20,000 bases of DNA, taken from IMG/VR virus record IMGVR_UViG_3300031998_000049, one strand, 5' to 3'. This DNA comes from an uncultured virus (IMG/VR IMGVR_UViG_3300031998_000049) (lineage: Duplodnaviria; Heunggongvirae; Uroviricota; Caudoviricetes). Numbering within the stretch: position 1 is the first letter of the stretch; each line of letters opens with the position of its first letter. Of the stretch, positions 899-19,297 are shown piece after piece. The translations under genes were made by a program, and so were the position numbers. Below the pieces are notes generated by a model. It made no database searches. It had not been told where the DNA came from and saw only the letters and a list, made by a program, of their open reading frames with translations.

Positions 899-1657
899 AT
901 GGCCGGATATATCACCATACCGAGAGACCTGTTTACGGACAAGACTTTCAAGCCAGGTAAAGCGAACGAAACATTTGCTTTCATCGACTTGATTCAGCTC
1001 GCCGAATACAAGGATCGAGATGTCAATATCAAGGGACAAATCATCCATCTGAATCGCGGTGAACTCGCCACTTCCGTCAGGATTCTTTCAGAGCGCTGGT
1101 GCTGGAGCGTAAACGCAACCACACACGCACTTGATACCCTCGAAAGGTGTGGCAAAGTGATACGCAGAAAAAGCAATGTAACTTCCATAATATCAATCGT
1201 TAACTACGACAAGTACCAGCCGAACTCAAACGCAGAAAGTAACGCAGAAAGTAACGCAAAAGGTAACGCAGACGAAGACATTACTAAAGAAATAAATAAA
1301 ATAAATAATACAAGAAAGAAAGATACTAAAGTATCTAAAGAAAAATCCGATGCCGTCCTACGGCTTTATGCCATGTACCCCGCTTCTGTCGTCCGCGCCG
1401 ACGGCAACCGGGTTTCCCTGAAATCAGGTAAGGACAAGGATAAACTCTCAAGACTTCTTGACTCTCATACTGAGGAAGAGTTGACGAACACGATCAATCA
1501 GTATCTCTCCGAGAACCACGGAGCATATACCAAGATGTTCTCCACTTTCCTCAACAATCTGCCGGACTACTCAGAAACACCTACCATTGTGACACCAGCC
1601 CAGCAGGAACTATCGCTATTTGACCAGAAAAGAATCCGAAGACCCCAGGATGTATGA
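899..1657 (+). CDS. Phage replication initiator (replisome organizer / lambda O-like)
   Basis: N-terminal wHTH-like region (GYITIPR...LNRGELATSVRILSERW...SIISIVNYDKYQ), low-complexity linker with internal repeats, and an ATGA overlap with the primase-helicase gene. Confidence 0.75.
   Translation: MAGYITIPRDLFTDKTFKPGKANETFAFIDLIQLAEYKDRDVNIKGQIIHLNRGELATSVRILSERWCWSVNATTHALDTLERCGKVIRRKSNVTSIISIVNYDKYQPNSNAESNAESNAKGNADEDITKEINKINNTRKKDTKVSKEKSDAVLRLYAMYPASVVRADGNRVSLKSGKDKDKLSRLLDSHTEEELTNTINQYLSENHGAYTKMFSTFLNNLPDYSETPTIVTPAQQELSLFDQKRIRRPQDV
1229..1347. repeat. Iteron-like 12-bp tandem repeats plus AT-rich tract (probable replication origin)
   Basis: AACGCAGAAAGT x2, AACGCAAAAGGT and AACGCAGA at 1229-1272. 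A-rich tract at 1280-1347 contains the inverted repeat AGATACT-aa-AGTATCT (1321-1336). Confidence 0.7.
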
Positions 1658-3705
1658 TTGACGAAAAAACGATCCGATGTTGGTGGTCGCTGTTCAAGGC
1701 TGACAACCCGCTGACGGAAATACGAATCTTGGGGAATGGGAAGACATTCTCCGGATACTACACCGATGTTGAGGCGGTCCTTCGTGACATCCGCAGTTTC
1801 GACGGCTATGGAATCTATGCGACCATCAACGCGATCAAGGAATCCTGCTATGGACGGATGCAGCACGATTGCATCATCCAGAAGCCGAAAGAGACCACTT
1901 CGGACAACGACATCGACTACCGCACCACGCTCCTGATCGACATCGACCCCAAGCGCACGAGCGGCACGAATGCGAGCGACAGCGAGAAGGAGGCGGCGCA
2001 CAAGAAAGCGCTGGAGATTTACAAGTTCCTTGACGAGCAGGGATTCGAGAAGCCGGTGGTTGCCGACTCCGCAAACGGATACCATCTGCTCTACAAGGTC
2101 TTCCTCGCCAACTCGCCGGAGGTGAACGAGACGGTCAAGAAGTTCCTCCAGGCGCTCGATATGCTCTTCTCGGACAACGAGGACGGCGGCGCGATGGTGG
2201 ATACATCGGTCTTCAATGCCGCCCGAATCGCCAAACTGATCGGTACGACCTCAAGCAAGGGCGCCAACACACATGACAGGCCACAGCGGATTTCCAAGAT
2301 ACTCAAGATTCCAAGCGAGTACAAGGAAACGAACATCGCCTACATCCAGAAGGTCGCCGCGATGCTCCCGGAACCGGAGAGGCCCAGCCAGTACAACAAC
2401 TACAACACCGAGCGCTTCGACCTCGACGCTTTCATCCAGGAACACAACATCGAGGTGGTCAAGGTCGTCCGGTTCTCCGGAGGAACGAAATACATCCTCA
2501 AGGAGTGTCCGTTCAACAACAACCACAAGGCGCCGGATGCGGCCATCTTCGCGCTTGACAATGGGGCGTTCGCGTTCAAGTGCCTCCACGCTTCCTGCCA
2601 ACAATACCATTGGCGCGATTTTAGGCTGTTTTATGACCCTCAAGCATACGACCGGAGGGAATACGAGGCATTCGACCGGAAGCGCAAATATAACGCCCAA
2701 ATTCGCCAAGAAGACCTAAAGCCGGTGCCGGAGGACGATCGCGGTCACAAGTGGAAGACCGCATCGGAGTTCAAGTTCTTCGACCTCAAGGATGCCCAGG
2801 CTATCCCGTTCGGAATCCCGGCCATAGACCGGAAGACGATGGGGCAGATTCTCGGAGAGGTGACAGTCCTCTCCGGCGGATCGGGTAGCGGAAAGACGAC
2901 ATTTGTCAACCACCTCATCCTTACCGCAGTCCAAAGGAACTACCATGCGGCGCTCTGGTCGGGAGAAATGGCCGGAGGACGAATAGTTGCTTGGCTCGAC
3001 CAGATGGCCGCAGGGAAGAACAATGTAGAGAGCGTCCCAGGGACGGATGGTCTTTACTCGGTTCCGAAGAGAATCCGCGACAAGATCAACGATTGGCTCG
3101 GTGATAGGTTCCACATCTACGAGAACTCCTACGGAAACCGATGGAGCCAGCTCTGCGCAGACATTGAAGACTGCATCAAGCAGCACAATGTGAACCTCAT
3201 CGTCCTTGACAACAAGATGAGCCTTTCGCTCGACAACATCGTAGGCGACGCGAACGAGAAAGACCGAGAGTTCATCCTTGAACTGACGGACATCGCAAAG
3301 CGGACGAACACACATATCGTCCTCGTCGCGCATCCGAGAAAGGAAAACCTCACGCAGCTCATCCGCAAGGAGAGTATCGCCGGGTCGAGCGACATCACGA
3401 ACCTCGCGTTCAATGTCGTCCTCCTCCATCGCGTTGGCCGTGACTTCGAGAAGCGTGGCCGCGAGTTCTTCGGCCCTATCGCCGTCCAGGAACTCATGGA
3501 CTACTCGCTCGTGGTTGAGGTCGTCAAGGCGAGGACATCAGGCGTCCAGGACTTGCTCGTCGGTCTCTACTACGAGCAAGAAACCAGGCGGCTCAAGAAC
3601 GAGCAAGCCGAGAACATCGTCTACGGTTGGGACGAGCAACCCGTACAGGCAGAGTTTGAGGATATGCCGGATTTCACGAATGTTCCGTACTACGAAAATT
3701 TCTGA
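1654..3705 (+). CDS. Bifunctional AEP-like primase / zinc-binding domain / SF4 (DnaB/T7 gp4-like) helicase
   Basis: Primase motifs IDID and DSANGYH. Zinc-binding CPF..H...FKCLHASC. Walker A GGSGSGKTT, Walker B LIVLDN, and SF4 motifs VAHPRK and IAGSSDI. Confidence 0.85.
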   Translation: MIDEKTIRCWWSLFKADNPLTEIRILGNGKTFSGYYTDVEAVLRDIRSFDGYGIYATINAIKESCYGRMQHDCIIQKPKETTSDNDIDYRTTLLIDIDPKRTSGTNASDSEKEAAHKKALEIYKFLDEQGFEKPVVADSANGYHLLYKVFLANSPEVNETVKKFLQALDMLFSDNEDGGAMVDTSVFNAARIAKLIGTTSSKGANTHDRPQRISKILKIPSEYKETNIAYIQKVAAMLPEPERPSQYNNYNTERFDLDAFIQEHNIEVVKVVRFSGGTKYILKECPFNNNHKAPDAAIFALDNGAFAFKCLHASCQQYHWRDFRLFYDPQAYDRREYEAFDRKRKYNAQIRQEDLKPVPEDDRGHKWKTASEFKFFDLKDAQAIPFGIPAIDRKTMGQILGEVTVLSGGSGSGKTTFVNHLILTAVQRNYHAALWSGEMAGGRIVAWLDQMAAGKNNVESVPGTDGLYSVPKRIRDKINDWLGDRFHIYENSYGNRWSQLCADIEDCIKQHNVNLIVLDNKMSLSLDNIVGDANEKDREFILELTDIAKRTNTHIVLVAHPRKENLTQLIRKESIAGSSDITNLAFNVVLLHRVGRDFEKRGREFFGPIAVQELMDYSLVVEVVKARTSGVQDLLVGLYYEQETRRLKNEQAENIVYGWDEQPVQAEFEDMPDFTNVPYYENF

Positions 3706-5384: not shown

Positions 5385-5708
5385 ATGCGCGAGATCAAGT
5401 TTAAGGGCAAGGCCAAATCGAATGGCCAATGGGTTTACGGCAACCTCTCGTACCGGGAGGCTGACAACGGATATTCCTGCGTTTACATCGAAGACCAGGG
5501 TTGGGACGGCGGTTTGACCGAGGTCGATCCCGAGAGCGTCGGCCAGTACACGGGGCTCAAGGACAAGAACGGGGTGGAGATTTACGAGGGGGACATCTTG
5601 ACCAATGTGGATGGTTATTCTTTCCGCGTCCCGTTTAATTGGGCGCTCAATTTCGCCGCTGGCACAGATAGCCGTATCACCGGCAACATTCACGACAAAA
5701 AAGAGTAG
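5385..5708 (+). CDS. YopX family phage protein
   Basis: MREIKFKGK...WVYG...VDPESVGQYTGLKDKNGVEIYEGDIL...GNIHD is the YopX signature. Confidence 0.9.
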   Translation: MREIKFKGKAKSNGQWVYGNLSYREADNGYSCVYIEDQGWDGGLTEVDPESVGQYTGLKDKNGVEIYEGDILTNVDGYSFRVPFNWALNFAAGTDSRITGNIHDKKE

Positions 5709-7164: not shown

Positions 7165-7332
7165 ATGACTGCAAATGAACTCATACGCAAGCTCCAGGGT
7201 GAGGTTGCAAAGCTAACCTCCGGGGATATTCCTATCAAGATTGATGGCACCAGGATTCTCGGCGCAGAAGTGAAGCTCGACGAGGATGAACGCGGCCTTT
7301 TTATAGACATTCAACAGAAGATTTACTTCTAA
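7165..7332 (+). CDS. Hypothetical protein (55 aa)
   Basis: MTANELIRKLQGEVAKLTSGDIPIKIDG...IYF*, read manually (below the ORF-track cutoff). Confidence 0.6.
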   Translation: MTANELIRKLQGEVAKLTSGDIPIKIDGTRILGAEVKLDEDERGLFIDIQQKIYF

Positions 7333-7466
7333 TGAAAGCAAGATACCCCAGATGTATGCCCCGGTTCTACAAGGTGGGACTTTGGTGGCGGAACTTCAAG
7401 AGAGAATACCGGCGCAACAAGCGCAACGATGCGCTCTGCGCAAGATTGACAAGGATCGCGGTGTAA
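7332..7466 (+). CDS. Small basic protein (44 aa)
   Basis: TAATG coupling. MKARYPRCMPRFYKVGLWWRNFKREYRRNKRNDALCARLTRIAV*. The 3' end overlaps the tRNA-like element. Confidence 0.4.
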   Translation: MKARYPRCMPRFYKVGLWWRNFKREYRRNKRNDALCARLTRIAV

Positions 7467-7555
7467 GAGATGCAACGCCCCGGCCCATCGGGTTTCGTGG
7501 TTAAGGGTGGGACGCGGGGAGGTGCTGGCTCTGCGATGCAATCCAGCCGATCCTT
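7452..7555 (+). ncRNA. tRNA-shaped RNA with expanded anticodon arm and T-loop
   Basis: Acceptor stem AGGATCG/CGATCCT, D-like arm, CCCCG/CGGGG stem, AGGT variable loop, and GCTGG/CCAGC T-stem directly adjoining the acceptor strand. No 7-nt anticodon loop and no CCA. Confidence 0.65.
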
Positions 7556-7562
7556 TTGACAT

Positions 7563-7664
7563 AGGGGGCCGTAAGGAATGAGCCGCGAGGTTCACGCACT
7601 ACTACATTTCATTTCGGACAGAATAAAGCGTTAAACAAGTTTTCCCAAAGCCCTGCGGCTCCCT
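7563..7664 (+). ncRNA. Putative structured RNA 3
   Basis: Closing stem AGGGGGCCGTA/TGCGGCTCCCT and GNRA hairpin TGAGCC-GCGA-GGTTCA, followed by a T-run. Confidence 0.55.
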
Positions 7665-7680
7665 TTTAATTGAAAGCATT

Positions 7681-7833
7681 ATGGAAACAGCGAAAATCAT
7701 CTTTGCCATCGTGGTCGGCATCCTCTTTATCGCGTGGATAGCCATTGAGGTTGTCTTGTTGATAGCTATGGCGAAATCGGACGCGAAACCGAGCCTTGAT
7801 CCGAACGATGACATAACGGAAATTGACTTATGA
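7681..7833 (+). CDS. Small single-pass membrane protein (50 aa)
   Basis: METAKIIFAIVVGILFIAWIAIEVVLLIAMAK..., with ATGA overlap into the next gene. Confidence 0.6.
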   Translation: METAKIIFAIVVGILFIAWIAIEVVLLIAMAKSDAKPSLDPNDDITEIDL

Positions 7834-8345
7834 AACAGACACTACAAACCATCACAACCATCTGCGCCTGCCTTGTGTGCTTCATGTGCGGTTATCTGCT
7901 CGGCGCAACAAGACCGCAGGCCAAGCAAGAGGTGGAGGTCAAGCCCCGCTCGGCGGTGCAGATGCTCCGCAACCTCCATCGTGACGAACTGACCGAGTGG
8001 CAGATGCTCACGATGGCCATCTGTTACACCGAAAGCAAGTTCCACGACGAGGCGAAGGGCAAGGCCGGAGATTCGGGCCAGTTCCAATTCATCCCTGTCT
8101 ATGTAGCCGAAGTGAACCGGCTCTATGGGACAGACTACACTATCGACGATGCTTCCGACCTCGGCAAGAGCCTGGAGATGTTCAACAAGCTCCAGAACTA
8201 CTACAACCCCTCGCACGGGATCGAGGACGGCATCAAGTACCACAACAGAAGTCCTTACTATCGCAGGGCTGTCTTGGATAATCTTGAACTCATCCGGCGG
8301 TACGAGAGGACGAGAAAGGCGGTGATTAACTACAAAGCTAACTGA
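7830..8345 (+). CDS. Membrane-anchored SLT-like lytic transglycosylase
   Basis: N-terminal hydrophobic helix, catalytic Glu motif AICYTES and second motif GQFQF (GxxQ). Confidence 0.75.
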   Translation: MKQTLQTITTICACLVCFMCGYLLGATRPQAKQEVEVKPRSAVQMLRNLHRDELTEWQMLTMAICYTESKFHDEAKGKAGDSGQFQFIPVYVAEVNRLYGTDYTIDDASDLGKSLEMFNKLQNYYNPSHGIEDGIKYHNRSPYYRRAVLDNLELIRRYERTRKAVINYKAN

Positions 8346-18248: not shown

Positions 18249-18860
18249 CTATTTTCTGATAAGGTTATACTTTGCGCCTATCTGGCCGTACGGGCCAGCG
18301 ATTGCGCTCTTAAAGTCATAGAATACGCCGTATCCTCCCTCGGCCGAGAACTGCCAGCGGCCTTTCCAATAGTCTATCTCCAGACCTCCGCCGGCGCCGA
18401 AAGTCCCAGGAAGGACAAAGGCGTCTATGGTAGGAGATAGTGCGAAGGTTGGGTACTTGTACTCCGGTACGACCTTCGTGATGTAGAATGTGCGCTGGTA
18501 GACCTCTATCCAGTCGAGGTTCGGTTGGATGCCGGACACTTGCGCCCGATAGGTCGAGTCTTCGTATCGTTTCACCTCCGGGTTCATCGGGATTGCGGTC
18601 GTGTCCGCGTGGCCGGTGCTGTCCTTGACGATGACCGGCACATACACCACCCTGCCCGTATCGCGGTACTCGATGACGGGGACGGGCTTGTCAATGTAGA
18701 TCGGCTTGTCAACGTACTCTGTATCCGGCTTTATGGATGCGAGTGCGTCATCATACCCCGATGAATAGTGTATGTTGCCGCTTATTTGCCACGAAAAGTA
18801 GGCGACGACAATCACACAGACGACAAGCAAAATGTCGTCAAGAATCCTATCGAATTTCAT
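18249..18860 (-). CDS. Membrane-anchored lysis-associated protein (DUF6808-like, spanin candidate)
   Basis: N-terminal TM helix, YEDSTYRAQVSG motif, C-terminal amphipathic beta strands, ATGA overlap with the endolysin. Confidence 0.65.
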   Translation of the reverse strand: MKFDRILDDILLVVCVIVVAYFSWQISGNIHYSSGYDDALASIKPDTEYVDKPIYIDKPVPVIEYRDTGRVVYVPVIVKDSTGHADTTAIPMNPEVKRYEDSTYRAQVSGIQPNLDWIEVYQRTFYITKVVPEYKYPTFALSPTIDAFVLPGTFGAGGGLEIDYWKGRWQFSAEGGYGVFYDFKSAIAGPYGQIGAKYNLIRK

Positions 18861-19297
18861 TTCACGTTCATCGTTTTAACCTCACACCTCTGCTGGCCGG
18901 CGTTGTTGTAAAGTCCGATATGGAGCCAGCGATTACCCTTGCTGTCGGGCTCGATGATGAGCTGGTCGAACTTGATCCTGTTCTTCTTGAGCCACTCCTC
19001 GACAAACTTGACGAACTCGTCGAACTTCCCGTTTGCCGGGGTAAGGTCCGCCGCCCATCCGAGCTTATGGACCGAAGTAGTGGAACCGCCAACGAGTTTG
19101 TTGAGGGCCTCGCAGCGGAAACCGGAGTTGATGTTGATTCCAGACCCCCACGCGGCGCGCAACGGATCGAGGATGGACGAGACGAGCTGGCAGATCCGTT
19201 CCACGATTTCGAAGGTTGGAGTGTTGTCTATACCATTCTTTTTCGCTTTCTCGGATCGCAAGAACTCGTACAGTTCAAAATACTTGTACTTTCCCAT
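18857..19297 (-). CDS. Endolysin, peptidase M15 family
   Basis: INSGFRC, SVHKLGWAAD (SxHxxGxAxD) and WLHI zinc-ligand motifs. Confidence 0.9.
   Translation of the reverse strand: MGKYKYFELYEFLRSEKAKKNGIDNTPTFEIVERICQLVSSILDPLRAAWGSGININSGFRCEALNKLVGGSTTSVHKLGWAADLTPANGKFDEFVKFVEEWLKKNRIKFDQLIIEPDSKGNRWLHIGLYNNAGQQRCEVKTMNVK

What the first reader, a model, noticed from the sequence alone, without database searches (positions are those of the whole stretch)
7452..7555. tRNA-mimic RNA with intact stems but remodelled anticodon arm and T-loop
Seen: tRNA topology with a 7-bp acceptor stem (7452-7458/7548-7554), 2-nt linker, D-like arm GTGTAAGAGATGCAAC, 5-bp CCCCG/CGGGG stem, AGGT variable loop and 5-bp T-stem. 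The anticodon loop is replaced by a 32-nt extension (extra stem CCCATC/GGTGGG plus a 16-nt loop GGGTTTCGTGGTTAAG). The T-loop is 14 nt and holds a mini-hairpin TGC-GAT-GCA. The acceptor, anticodon and T stems pair perfectly, which argues against simple decay. Known precedent: phage P1 C4 and P4 CI RNAs are structured antisense regulators processed by RNase P. Inference: an antisense regulator, an RNase P/Z processing signal, or a decoy against anticodon nucleases.
Basis: partly seen in the sequence, partly recalled or inferred. Interest (0 to 1): 0.75.

Follow-up and report, generated by a model that had tools for sequence, protein, structure and literature searches.

The report
Conserved tRNA-shaped non-decoding phage RNA
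A roughly 105-base stretch between two genes of a phage folds into a tRNA-like cross shape that diverged relatives keep through matched changes on both sides of its stems, so it is a real RNA of an uncatalogued family that cannot read codons and whose job is still unknown.

Summary
Folding energy alone does not support them (z -0.1 to -0.4). Comparison does.

- **Conservation.** One relative keeps 7416-7553 letter for letter while its flanks diverge.
- **Family.** A covariance model built from the window alone recovered diverged copies. Ten distinct members are now known, all on the same strand as their neighbouring genes.
- **Covariation.** 94.6% of pair cells are standard pairs, against 36-57% when partners are slid. 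18 of 29 pairs change on both sides.
- **tRNA likeness.** The lower half looks tRNA-derived: an 8+5 bp acceptor/T stack and an AGGU variable loop. Two members have canonical T loops, and one scores 27.2 bits on Rfam tRNA (threshold 29).
- **Why it cannot decode.** The "D arm" is a conserved 6-7 bp hairpin. The "anticodon arm" is a 12 bp or longer helix with a GUGGUU loop motif. The window's T loop is 14 nt.
- **Databases.** ARAGORN finds no tRNA in the window and Rfam has no convincing match there.

Best reading (0.42): a stand-alone, tRNA-derived, non-decoding RNA carried on the early-operon transcript and recognised through its tRNA-like core. Whether it is a processing signal, a regulator or a decoy is untested.

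The parts
7451..7458 (+). P1 5' strand (acceptor-like stem, 8 bp with 7548-7555)
   Evidence: Read. 6 of 8 pairs change on both sides in relatives. Stem length varies from 4 to 12 bp across members.
7459..7477 (+). The most sequence-conserved part of the family.
   Evidence: The apical pair is A-U in 6 of 10 sequences, G-C in 2, C-G in 1 and unpaired in 1. The other pairs are invariant or wobble changes.
7478..7519 (+). P3 long arm. Base stem 7478-7482/7515-7519, G7483-C7513 flanked by bulged G7514 and A7512, upper stem 7484-7489/7506-7511, 16-nt loop 7490-7505.
   Evidence: Read. 7 of the 10 modelled pairs change on both sides. The upper part is completely rewritten in L005, L007 and L087.
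7497..7502 (+). GTGGTT motif in the P3 loop
   Evidence: Present in 9 of 10 distinct members. One of the nine, L087, was found with a pattern that demanded the motif, so the unbiased count is 8 of 9.
7520..7523 (+). AGGT junction between P3 and P4 (tRNA variable-loop position)
   Evidence: AGGT or a close variant in all members.
7524..7547 (+). P4 arm (T-arm position): 5-bp stem 7524-7528/7543-7547 and 14-nt loop 7529-7542
   Evidence: 100% of cells paired and 4 of 5 pairs changed on both sides. Loop length is 5 to 14 nt. Loops are canonical 7-nt T loops in L041 and L087.
7548..7555 (+). P1 3' strand
   Evidence: As for P1 5' strand. No CCA follows in any of the 10 members.
7332..7466 (+). 44-aa basic ORF. 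Its last five codons and its stop codon (7464-7466) overlap P1 and P2.
   Evidence: Its C-terminal motif is kept in G001, L005, L063, L066 and, at protein level, in L007.
7563..7667 (+). Separate downstream conserved domain: a long-range 10-13 bp helix (7563-7576 with 7652-7664), a GNRA-capped hairpin (7580-7593) and a T-run. The next gene starts at 7681.
   Evidence: Present in the window, G001, L005, L007 and L066. Absent after the element in L063, L041, L044, L025, L023 and L087, so it is not part of the tRNA-shaped unit.
7681..8345 (+). Downstream genes: a 50-aa hydrophobic protein (7681-7833) and a 171-aa SLT-domain protein (7830-8345)
   Evidence: I judged the 50-aa protein holin-like from its hydrophobic sequence only.

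Best explanation
The element is one member of an uncatalogued family of phage RNAs derived from a tRNA gene that can no longer decode.

Inferred from strand and spacing: it is transcribed as part of the + strand early-operon message. It sits between ORFs or at the end of the operon.

Shown by covariation: it folds into a four-way junction.
- P1 and P4 occupy the acceptor and T-arm positions.
- P2 and P3 occupy the D and anticodon positions.
- An AGGU linker occupies the variable-loop position.

The conserved letters cluster at the junction (the last P1 pairs, P2, the base of P3 with a bulged G, AGGU, and the inner P4 pairs). Loops and outer stems are free to change.

Inferred, not shown: the tRNA-like core is what is recognised by a host or phage factor that handles tRNAs. 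The two concrete versions I consider likeliest are these.
(a) Host RNase P and 3'-end enzymes cut the RNA out. That splits the polycistronic message and releases a stable ~100-nt RNA, as with P1/P7 C4 RNA and plant mitochondrial t-elements.
(b) The RNA acts as a non-decoding stand-in that occupies a tRNA-binding protein, such as a tRNA-directed defence nuclease.
For: Structure and family:
- 7416-7553 is identical in G001, while the whole 401-nt comparison is 83% identical.
- Model R1, built from the window sequence only, found L005 (E 2e-7), L041 (9e-6), L025 and L007 (1e-3), L044 (1.6e-3) and L023 (0.04) in 237,354 bases. All are on the gene strand.
- Model R2 then found L063, L066 and L087.
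- Unconstrained folding returns the cloverleaf, or nearly so, in 5 of 10 members: L007, L041, L044 (approximately), L025 and L066.

tRNA ancestry:
- L041 scores 27.2 bits on RF00005 across the whole model, with a 49-nt insert.
- The T loops of L041 and L087 are canonical 7-nt loops.
- R2 weakly hits a true tRNA in G002.

Stand-alone RNA rather than a leader:
- The neighbouring genes differ between members.
- In L087 the element follows a stop codon by 8 nt and is itself followed by a strong hairpin-plus-T-run terminator (read by eye).
- In 5 members it starts 4-8 nt after a stop codon.

Precedents:
- C4 precursor as an RNase P substrate (title seen in a reference list).
- t-elements (abstract).
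- tRNA-directed immunity (abstract).
Against: - No expression or end-mapping data exist.
- P1 plus P4 is not a constant 12 bp. It is about 9 bp in L087, 10 in L066, 13 in the window and 18 in L007. That argues against enzymes that measure the tRNA arm.
- The T loop, a contact for RNase P, is 5, 6, 7 or 14 nt.
- Folding energies are not better than shuffles in most members (z from -2.7 to +0.9).
- No CCA is encoded in any member.
- No target complementary to the P3 loop exists in the window.
- No protein family co-occurs specifically with the element.
- The conserved junction with a closing helix of variable length is also what ligand- or protein-binding cis elements look like.
- Three of the ten members were found with patterns that required P2 letters. 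The model-fitted alignment also leans towards the structure.
Confidence: 0.42

Rival explanations
1. It is a cis-acting regulatory RNA, either a ligand- or protein-binding leader or an antitermination element. It would control the genes downstream (in the window, the hydrophobic 50-aa protein and the SLT-domain protein), possibly together with the terminator-like domain at 7563-7667.
For: - The conserved junction core with a variable closing helix resembles an aptamer.
- In the window group the element lies at the border between the early genes and the holin-like/SLT genes. It is followed by a conserved long-range helix and a T-run just before the next start codon.
- A small arginine-rich ORF always precedes it in that group.
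Against: - Downstream genes differ: a resolvase-like gene in L041, whose downstream sequence L044 shares (I did not run L044's ORFs), and a small phrog_1123 protein in L025, with a closely similar start in L023.
- In L025 and L023 the element lies after the SLT gene, not before it.
- In L087 it is followed by a terminator, so there is no gene to control.
- The 7563-7667 domain is missing after 6 of 10 members.
Confidence: 0.15
2. It is the precursor of a working tRNA. The upper part of P3 would be an intron that is removed, like the 'enigmatic' introns reported in tRNA genes of Prevotella megaphages.
For: - L041 nearly passes the Rfam tRNA threshold.
- With its intron option, ARAGORN calls L041 and L044 as tRNAs.
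- The related phage G002 carries a clear tRNA (48.4 bits) with a 52-nt anticodon loop.
- Lak phage tRNA introns are described in PMC6784885 (passages read).
Against: - ARAGORN assigns different identities and intron lengths to the two close relatives: Asn with 29 nt and Ala with 14 nt. It finds nothing in the other 7 family members in the set, the window included.
- Covariation supports a P2 hairpin that excludes a normal D arm.
- P3 is 12 bp or longer, not 5 bp.
- No 7-nt loop with U33 and a common anticodon can be drawn across members.
- The window's T loop is 14 nt.
Confidence: 0.1
3. It is a decaying pseudo-tRNA or a recombination scar with no function.
For: - T loops and arm lengths differ widely.
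- Folding energies are ordinary.
- Phage genomes are mosaics, so an identical block in one relative could be a recent exchange.
Against: Compensatory changes occur in all five helices across ten diverged members from different gene neighbourhoods. P2 and the junction stay conserved in sequence while the flanks are unalignable.
Confidence: 0.06
4. It acts as DNA, for example as an attachment site, an origin, or a copy of a protein-binding site.
For: The P3 loop letters GTGGTTAAG equal a DNA motif, TGTGGTTAAGT. That motif occurs five times (at most 1 mismatch) within 288 bp of an intergenic region of the relative G002. Shuffles give a mean of 0.7 per genome.
Against: - G-U pairs occur on the + strand only. 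They would be A-C mismatches on the other strand.
- In G001 the integrase genes and a tRNA-Ser gene lie about 46 kb away.
- The motif cluster is absent from the window. G001 has one site, and five partial relatives show counts no higher than the control.
Confidence: 0.05

Closest known systems
Transfer RNA (Rfam RF00005)
   Same: - Four-way junction with acceptor and T-arm positions.
- A 5-bp T stem.
- AGGU at the variable-loop position.
- Canonical T loops in two members.
- One member scores 27.2 bits.
   Different: - No D arm with GG.
- No 5-bp anticodon stem or 7-nt loop.
- No common anticodon.
- The window copy gets no tRNA hit even at E <= 10 and no ARAGORN call.
tRNA genes with 'enigmatic introns' in Lak megaphages (Devoto et al. 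2019, PMC6784885), and the tRNA with a 52-nt anticodon loop in relative G002
   Same: Phage-borne tRNA-shaped genes with tens of extra bases in the anticodon region.
   Different: Those keep a normal D arm, T arm and a predicted anticodon. This family has rebuilt the D position and lengthened the anticodon stem.
C4 antisense RNA of phages P1/P7 and CI RNA of P4
   Same: A small structured phage RNA cut from a longer transcript. The C4 precursor is an RNase P substrate (Hartmann et al. 1995; title seen in a reference list, details recalled).
   Different: - No Rfam match to C4.
- Different fold.
- No complementary target found in the window.
Plant mitochondrial t-elements (Forner et al. 2007, PMC1920247)
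   Same: tRNA-like folds between or beside mRNAs, proposed as RNase P / RNase Z cutting signals (abstract).
   Different: They come from organelles rather than phages. This family also has a sequence-conserved core and a long third arm, which a mere cutting signal would not need.
Bacterial tRNA-Sec and allo-tRNAs (Mukai et al. 2017, PMC5389517; abstract start seen in the listing; tRNA-Sec details recalled)
   Same: An 8+5 bp acceptor/T stack and a long D-position stem with a tiny loop.
   Different: No separate variable arm, no anticodon loop, and no UCA anticodon common to the members.

Membership tests
tRNA (RF00005) | Acceptor stem of 7 bp stacked on a 5-bp T stem | tested here: met
   Window: 7-8 bp plus 5 bp. 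Across the family the sum ranges from about 9 to 18 bp.
tRNA (RF00005) | 7-nt T loop of the UUCRANY type | tested here: not met
   The window loop is 14 nt. The feature is met in L041 and L087 only.
tRNA (RF00005) | D arm with a 3-4 bp stem and a 7-11 nt loop carrying GG | tested here: not met
   Covariation supports a 6-7 bp hairpin with a 3-5 nt loop instead.
tRNA (RF00005) | 5-bp anticodon stem and a 7-nt loop with U33 and an anticodon | tested here: not met
   The window has a 12-bp arm with a 16-nt loop. ARAGORN with its intron option gives inconsistent calls.
tRNA (RF00005) | Passes detector thresholds | tested here: not met
   ARAGORN finds 0 genes. No RF00005 hit at E <= 10 in 7300-7720. 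The best family member scores 27.2 bits, below the 29-bit threshold.
C4 antisense RNA (Rfam C4 family) | Match to the family model | tested here: not met
   No hit at the gathering threshold or at E <= 10.
C4 antisense RNA (Rfam C4 family) | Loops complementary to sites in a target mRNA | tested here: not met
   The complement of the 16-nt loop is absent from the window at up to 3 mismatches. 8-9 nt matches in G001 are scattered.
RNase P / RNase Z processing signals (t-element-like) | tRNA-like fold next to mRNA ends | tested here: met
   The fold is supported by covariation. It lies between ORFs or at an operon end.
RNase P / RNase Z processing signals (t-element-like) | Cleavage at the ends of the acceptor stem | not testable with these tools
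   No RNA run was listed. In vitro cleavage or end mapping is needed.
Riboswitch / cis leader | A constant position upstream of one gene class, with an expression platform | tested here: not met
   Downstream genes differ, and L087 has a terminator with no gene downstream.

The most novel reading that the evidence does not exclude
Phages of this lineage have turned a tRNA gene into a scaffold. The tRNA core is kept so that host tRNA-handling or tRNA-attacking proteins still bind it, and the decoding arm has been rebuilt into an effector arm.

Under this reading the RNA is a counter-defence decoy or a regulator, and it would belong to a wider, undescribed class of non-decoding tRNA-shaped phage RNAs. 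The identity between the arm-3 loop letters and a five-fold DNA repeat in relative G002 would then mean that the RNA and a DNA-binding factor share a recognition motif.
Probability: 0.2. Interest if true: 0.8.

Novelty: new variant of a known kind. Interest (0 to 1): 0.6.

Why it matters
tRNA genes are the commonest RNA genes in phages, and tRNAs are a major target of bacterial immunity. A conserved phage RNA that keeps the tRNA body but has given up decoding would show that phages reuse the tRNA shape for another purpose, such as message processing, regulation or protection. It would also give a defined, small, covariation-supported RNA to test that idea on.

There is a practical point as well. 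Such genes are invisible to ARAGORN and Rfam in their default use, so phage RNA gene counts miss them.

Tried and rejected
- **GenBank phages.** The 1-kb region had no match in blastn distant mode.
- **Own assembly.** It is not held, so I worked with the nearest record, G001.
- **Exact 20-mer of the element in viral contigs.** It found only G001.
- **A 21-mer pattern for the L041 type.** It found nothing.
- **Gapped pattern.** Of 11 loci, 5 lay in records that already held a known copy (L080 to L083, L085). Of the 6 loci in new records, only L087 matched the model at E <= 1. The other five (L079, L084, L086, L088, L089) did not, so I treated them as chance matches.
- **Relatives of the SLT-domain protein in species genomes.** One short contig of a metagenome-assembled genome was found, so the host is not identified.
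- **RNA evidence.** No RNA holder was listed.
- **Loop complement.** It is absent from the window. 8-10 nt matches in G001 and G002 are scattered, apart from the G002 repeat cluster.
- **G002 repeat cluster in other genomes.** It did not recur in five partial relatives or in the window.
- **Co-occurring proteins.** I compared 10 loci with the element against 42 without it. Only the SLT protein used to collect the loci stood out, in 7 and 41 loci respectively.
- **Pfam scan of G001.** 98 of my 99 ORF calls were scanned; I left out the 267-bp call L071:993-1259, which is the frame opposite the element's region. No RNA ligase, CCA-adding enzyme or similar partner appeared.
- **Attachment-site reading.** Rejected, because the integrases and the tRNA-Ser gene lie elsewhere in G001.
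- **Weak model hits.** L011/L051 (E 2.1) were dropped as probable noise before the covariation count.
- **Literature.** Four searches found no description of this family.

Full report
**Setting**

The window is part of a phage genome.
- The + strand carries a DnaD-like loader (899-1657), a DnaB-type helicase/primase (1654-3705), a YopX protein (5385-5708) and many small ORFs.
- The element lies between a 44-aa basic ORF (7332-7466) and a 50-aa hydrophobic protein (7681-7833). An SLT-domain protein follows at 7830-8345.
- None of the 26 + strand ORF starts I listed has a clear Shine-Dalgarno sequence upstream, by my reading.
- In the relative G001, a TAnnTTTG-type motif precedes a Cro-like gene (read). 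From recalled knowledge of Bacteroidota promoters and ribosome-binding habits, I infer a Bacteroidota host. This is not shown.
- G001 is a temperate tailed phage. It has portal, terminase, capsid and tape-measure genes, two integrases and a tRNA-Ser gene next to one of them.

**Checking the observation**

ARAGORN finds no tRNA in the window. Rfam finds nothing at gathering thresholds. At E <= 10 it returns only three implausible hits, none of them tRNA-related.

Thermodynamics gives no support. The minimum-energy fold of 7452-7555 has z = -0.10, and the fold of 7451-7555 has z = -0.40. Both are rod-like, not cloverleaves. The reverse strand has z = -1.0.

**Relatives**

The nearest held record, G001, matches 7300-7700 at 83% identity. 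Within that match, 7416-7553 is identical while both flanks are heavily changed.

I then collected loci encoding relatives of the neighbouring SLT-domain protein. Two diverged copies turned up by blastn and by eye.
- L005 is about 70% identical.
- L007 has rewritten stems.

A covariance model made from the window sequence and my hand-drawn structure (R1) was run over 237,354 bases. It found the following, all on the gene strand:

| Locus | E-value |
|---|---|
| L005 | 2e-7 |
| L041 | 9e-6 |
| L025 (with two duplicates) | 1e-3 |
| L007 | 1e-3 |
| L044 | 1.6e-3 |
| L023 (with one duplicate) | 0.04 |

Pattern scans plus a second model (R2) added L063, L066 (which lies in phage G002) and L087. That makes ten distinct members, and G001 is identical to the window. 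Three of them (L063, L066, L087) were fetched with patterns that demanded P2 letters. L087 was also fetched with a pattern that demanded GTGGTT, so those features are partly there by selection.

**Structure**

On the ten-sequence alignment, the pair counts are as follows.
- 94.6% of 280 cells are standard pairs, against 36-57% when the 3' partners are slid by 1-3 columns.
- 18 of 29 pairs show changes on both sides.
- 0 of 500 column shuffles reach any of the five measures.

Per helix, the number of pairs changed on both sides is:

| Helix | Pairs changed on both sides |
|---|---|
| P1 | 6 of 8 |
| P2 | 1 of 6 (3 never vary) |
| P3 base | 3 of 5 |
| P3 upper | 4 of 5 |
| P4 | 4 of 5 |

The alignment was fitted to the structure, which favours it. 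However, the rewritten stems are plain by eye in L007 (12-bp P1, 6-bp P4), L005 and L041.

Unconstrained folding returns the cloverleaf, or nearly so, in 5 of 10 members: L007, L041, L044 (approximately), L025 and L066. It does not in the window, L005, L063, L023 or L087. The z-scores run from -2.7 to +0.9. G-U pairs lie on the + strand, so the folded molecule is the + strand RNA.

**How tRNA-like it is**

The 3' half is clearly tRNA-like.
- It has the AGGU linker and a 5-bp P4.
- L041 and L087 have canonical 7-nt T loops.
- L041 aligns end to end with Rfam tRNA at 27.2 bits (threshold 29, E 0.081), with a 49-nt insert in the anticodon region.
- R2 also weakly picks up a genuine tRNA in G002.

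The rest is not tRNA-like.
- P2 directly abuts P1 and P3. It forms 6-7 pairs with a conserved G.A (or G.G) mismatch and a 3-5 nt loop.
- P2's apical pair is A-U in six sequences, G-C in two, C-G in one and unpaired in one. That excludes the alternative 4-bp D stem that ARAGORN draws.
- P3 is a 12-bp or longer helix with a conserved bulged G near its base.
- The top of P3 is plastic. Several members have a short hairpin whose 3' strand includes GGUU, followed by 7-13 unpaired bases that often contain UUCA.
- With its intron option, ARAGORN calls L041 as Asn with a 29-nt intron and its close relative L044 as Ala with a 14-nt intron. It finds nothing in the other seven family members in the set.
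- The window copy has a 14-nt T loop. L005 and L063 have 5 nt at the same place.

These RNAs therefore cannot decode.

**Context**

- All ten copies are co-oriented with the flanking ORFs.
- In L041 and L025 the ORF listings put the element 4 and 6 nt after a stop codon.
- In L044, L023 and L087 I read stop codons 5, 5 and 8 nt upstream, without listing ORFs.
- In the window group and in L007 the upstream ORF's stop codon lies inside P2 or P1.
- The next gene varies: the hydrophobic 50-aa protein, a Holliday-junction resolvase-like protein in L041 (L044 shares its downstream sequence, but I did not run L044's ORFs), or a small phrog_1123 protein in L025 with a closely similar start in L023.
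- In L087 the element is followed, after about 10 nt, by a strong hairpin and T-run that I read by eye; I did not list the ORFs beyond it.
- No CCA follows any copy.
- No protein family tracks the element.
- No dedicated RNA enzyme is seen in G001.

**What this means**

The varied neighbours and the L087 arrangement argue against a leader that controls one gene. They favour a self-contained RNA carried on the operon transcript.

The conserved junction, with free loops and outer stems, suggests that the tRNA-like core is what is recognised. The known precedents are these.
- tRNA-like cutting signals: C4 of P1/P7 (title seen, details recalled) and t-elements (abstract).
- tRNA-directed immunity that a stand-in could absorb (abstract).

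Against the cutting-signal version, P1 plus P4 ranges from about 9 to 18 bp and the T loop is not kept.

I put 0.42 on a stand-alone non-decoding tRNA-derived RNA acting through its core. The rivals get 0.15 (cis regulator), 0.10 (intron-bearing tRNA precursor), 0.06 (junk) and 0.05 (DNA-level element).

**An unexplained lead**

In G002 the letters of the arm-3 loop, GTGGTTAAG, recur as TGTGGTTAAGT five times (at most 1 mismatch) within 288 bp of a repeat-rich intergenic region. That region lies upstream of a TAnnTTTG-type promoter motif. Twenty shuffles of the genome gave a mean of 0.7 sites and at most 3.

G001 has one such site in its Cro-like switch region and the window has none. In five partial relatives the 9-mer TGTGGTTAA at up to 1 mismatch was no more frequent than the control pattern. 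I cannot say whether this is chance, a shared protein-recognition motif or a pairing target.

**Novelty**

- No Rfam family matches.
- No GenBank phage matches.
- Four literature searches found no description.
- The nearest published item is the 'enigmatic' introns in Lak phage tRNAs (passages read). G002 itself has a true tRNA with a 52-nt anticodon loop, so odd tRNA-shaped genes are a theme in this lineage.
- Earlier notes of this scan report similar non-decoding tRNA-shaped phage RNAs elsewhere. They are unchecked leads, not support.

I rate this a new variant of a known kind (tRNA-like RNAs), with interest 0.6.

Noticed in passing
window 7563-7667: A second conserved RNA-like domain lies just after the element. 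It has a 10-13 bp long-range helix, a GNRA-capped hairpin and a T-run, and it ends 14 nt before the start of the 50-aa hydrophobic protein. It is shared by G001, L005, L007 and L066 but missing after the other members. It may be a terminator or leader for the following genes.
   Followed up: partly
window 7332-7466: A 44-aa arginine-rich ORF overlaps the previous ORF's stop codon (TAATG), and its last codons overlap P1 and P2 of the RNA. Its C-terminal motif is kept in relatives even where the N-terminal part differs or is shortened to 22 aa (L005).
   Followed up: partly
L078:6632-6749 (G002): A clear tRNA (Rfam 48.4 bits, normal D and T arms) has a 52-nt anticodon loop. Default ARAGORN misses it. 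With the intron option it is called Gly(ccc) with a 43-nt intron at an unusual place.
   Followed up: partly
L077:19522-19979 and L078:182-254 (G002): This phage carries a tmRNA gene (Rfam 67.9 bits). It also has two tRNA genes that ARAGORN cannot assign ('tRNA-???', two-letter anticodons), one directly upstream of the tmRNA gene.
   Followed up: no
L077:16981-17268 (G002 56981-57268): Five copies of TGTGGTTAAGT (at most 1 mismatch) lie among other repeats in an AT-rich, roughly 1.1-kb stretch with no convincing ORF. Three are on one strand and two on the other, which looks like iterons or operators. The motif equals the arm-3 loop letters of the RNA.
   Followed up: partly
window 18857-19297 (- strand): A second lysis-type gene (phrog_894 endolysin, E 1.9e-32) sits far from the SLT-domain gene at 7830-8345. 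The SLT protein may therefore not be the phage's main lysin.
   Followed up: no
window, starts of many + strand ORFs: Several genes start in the form TAGCC(T)ATG, with the previous stop codon 2-3 nt before the ATG and no Shine-Dalgarno sequence. This points to tight coupling and a host that does not use Shine-Dalgarno pairing.
   Followed up: no
L073:4764-7762 (G001): Two integrase-family genes sit next to a tRNA-Ser(gct) gene. This is the probable attachment region of the temperate phage, and it is far from the element.
   Followed up: no
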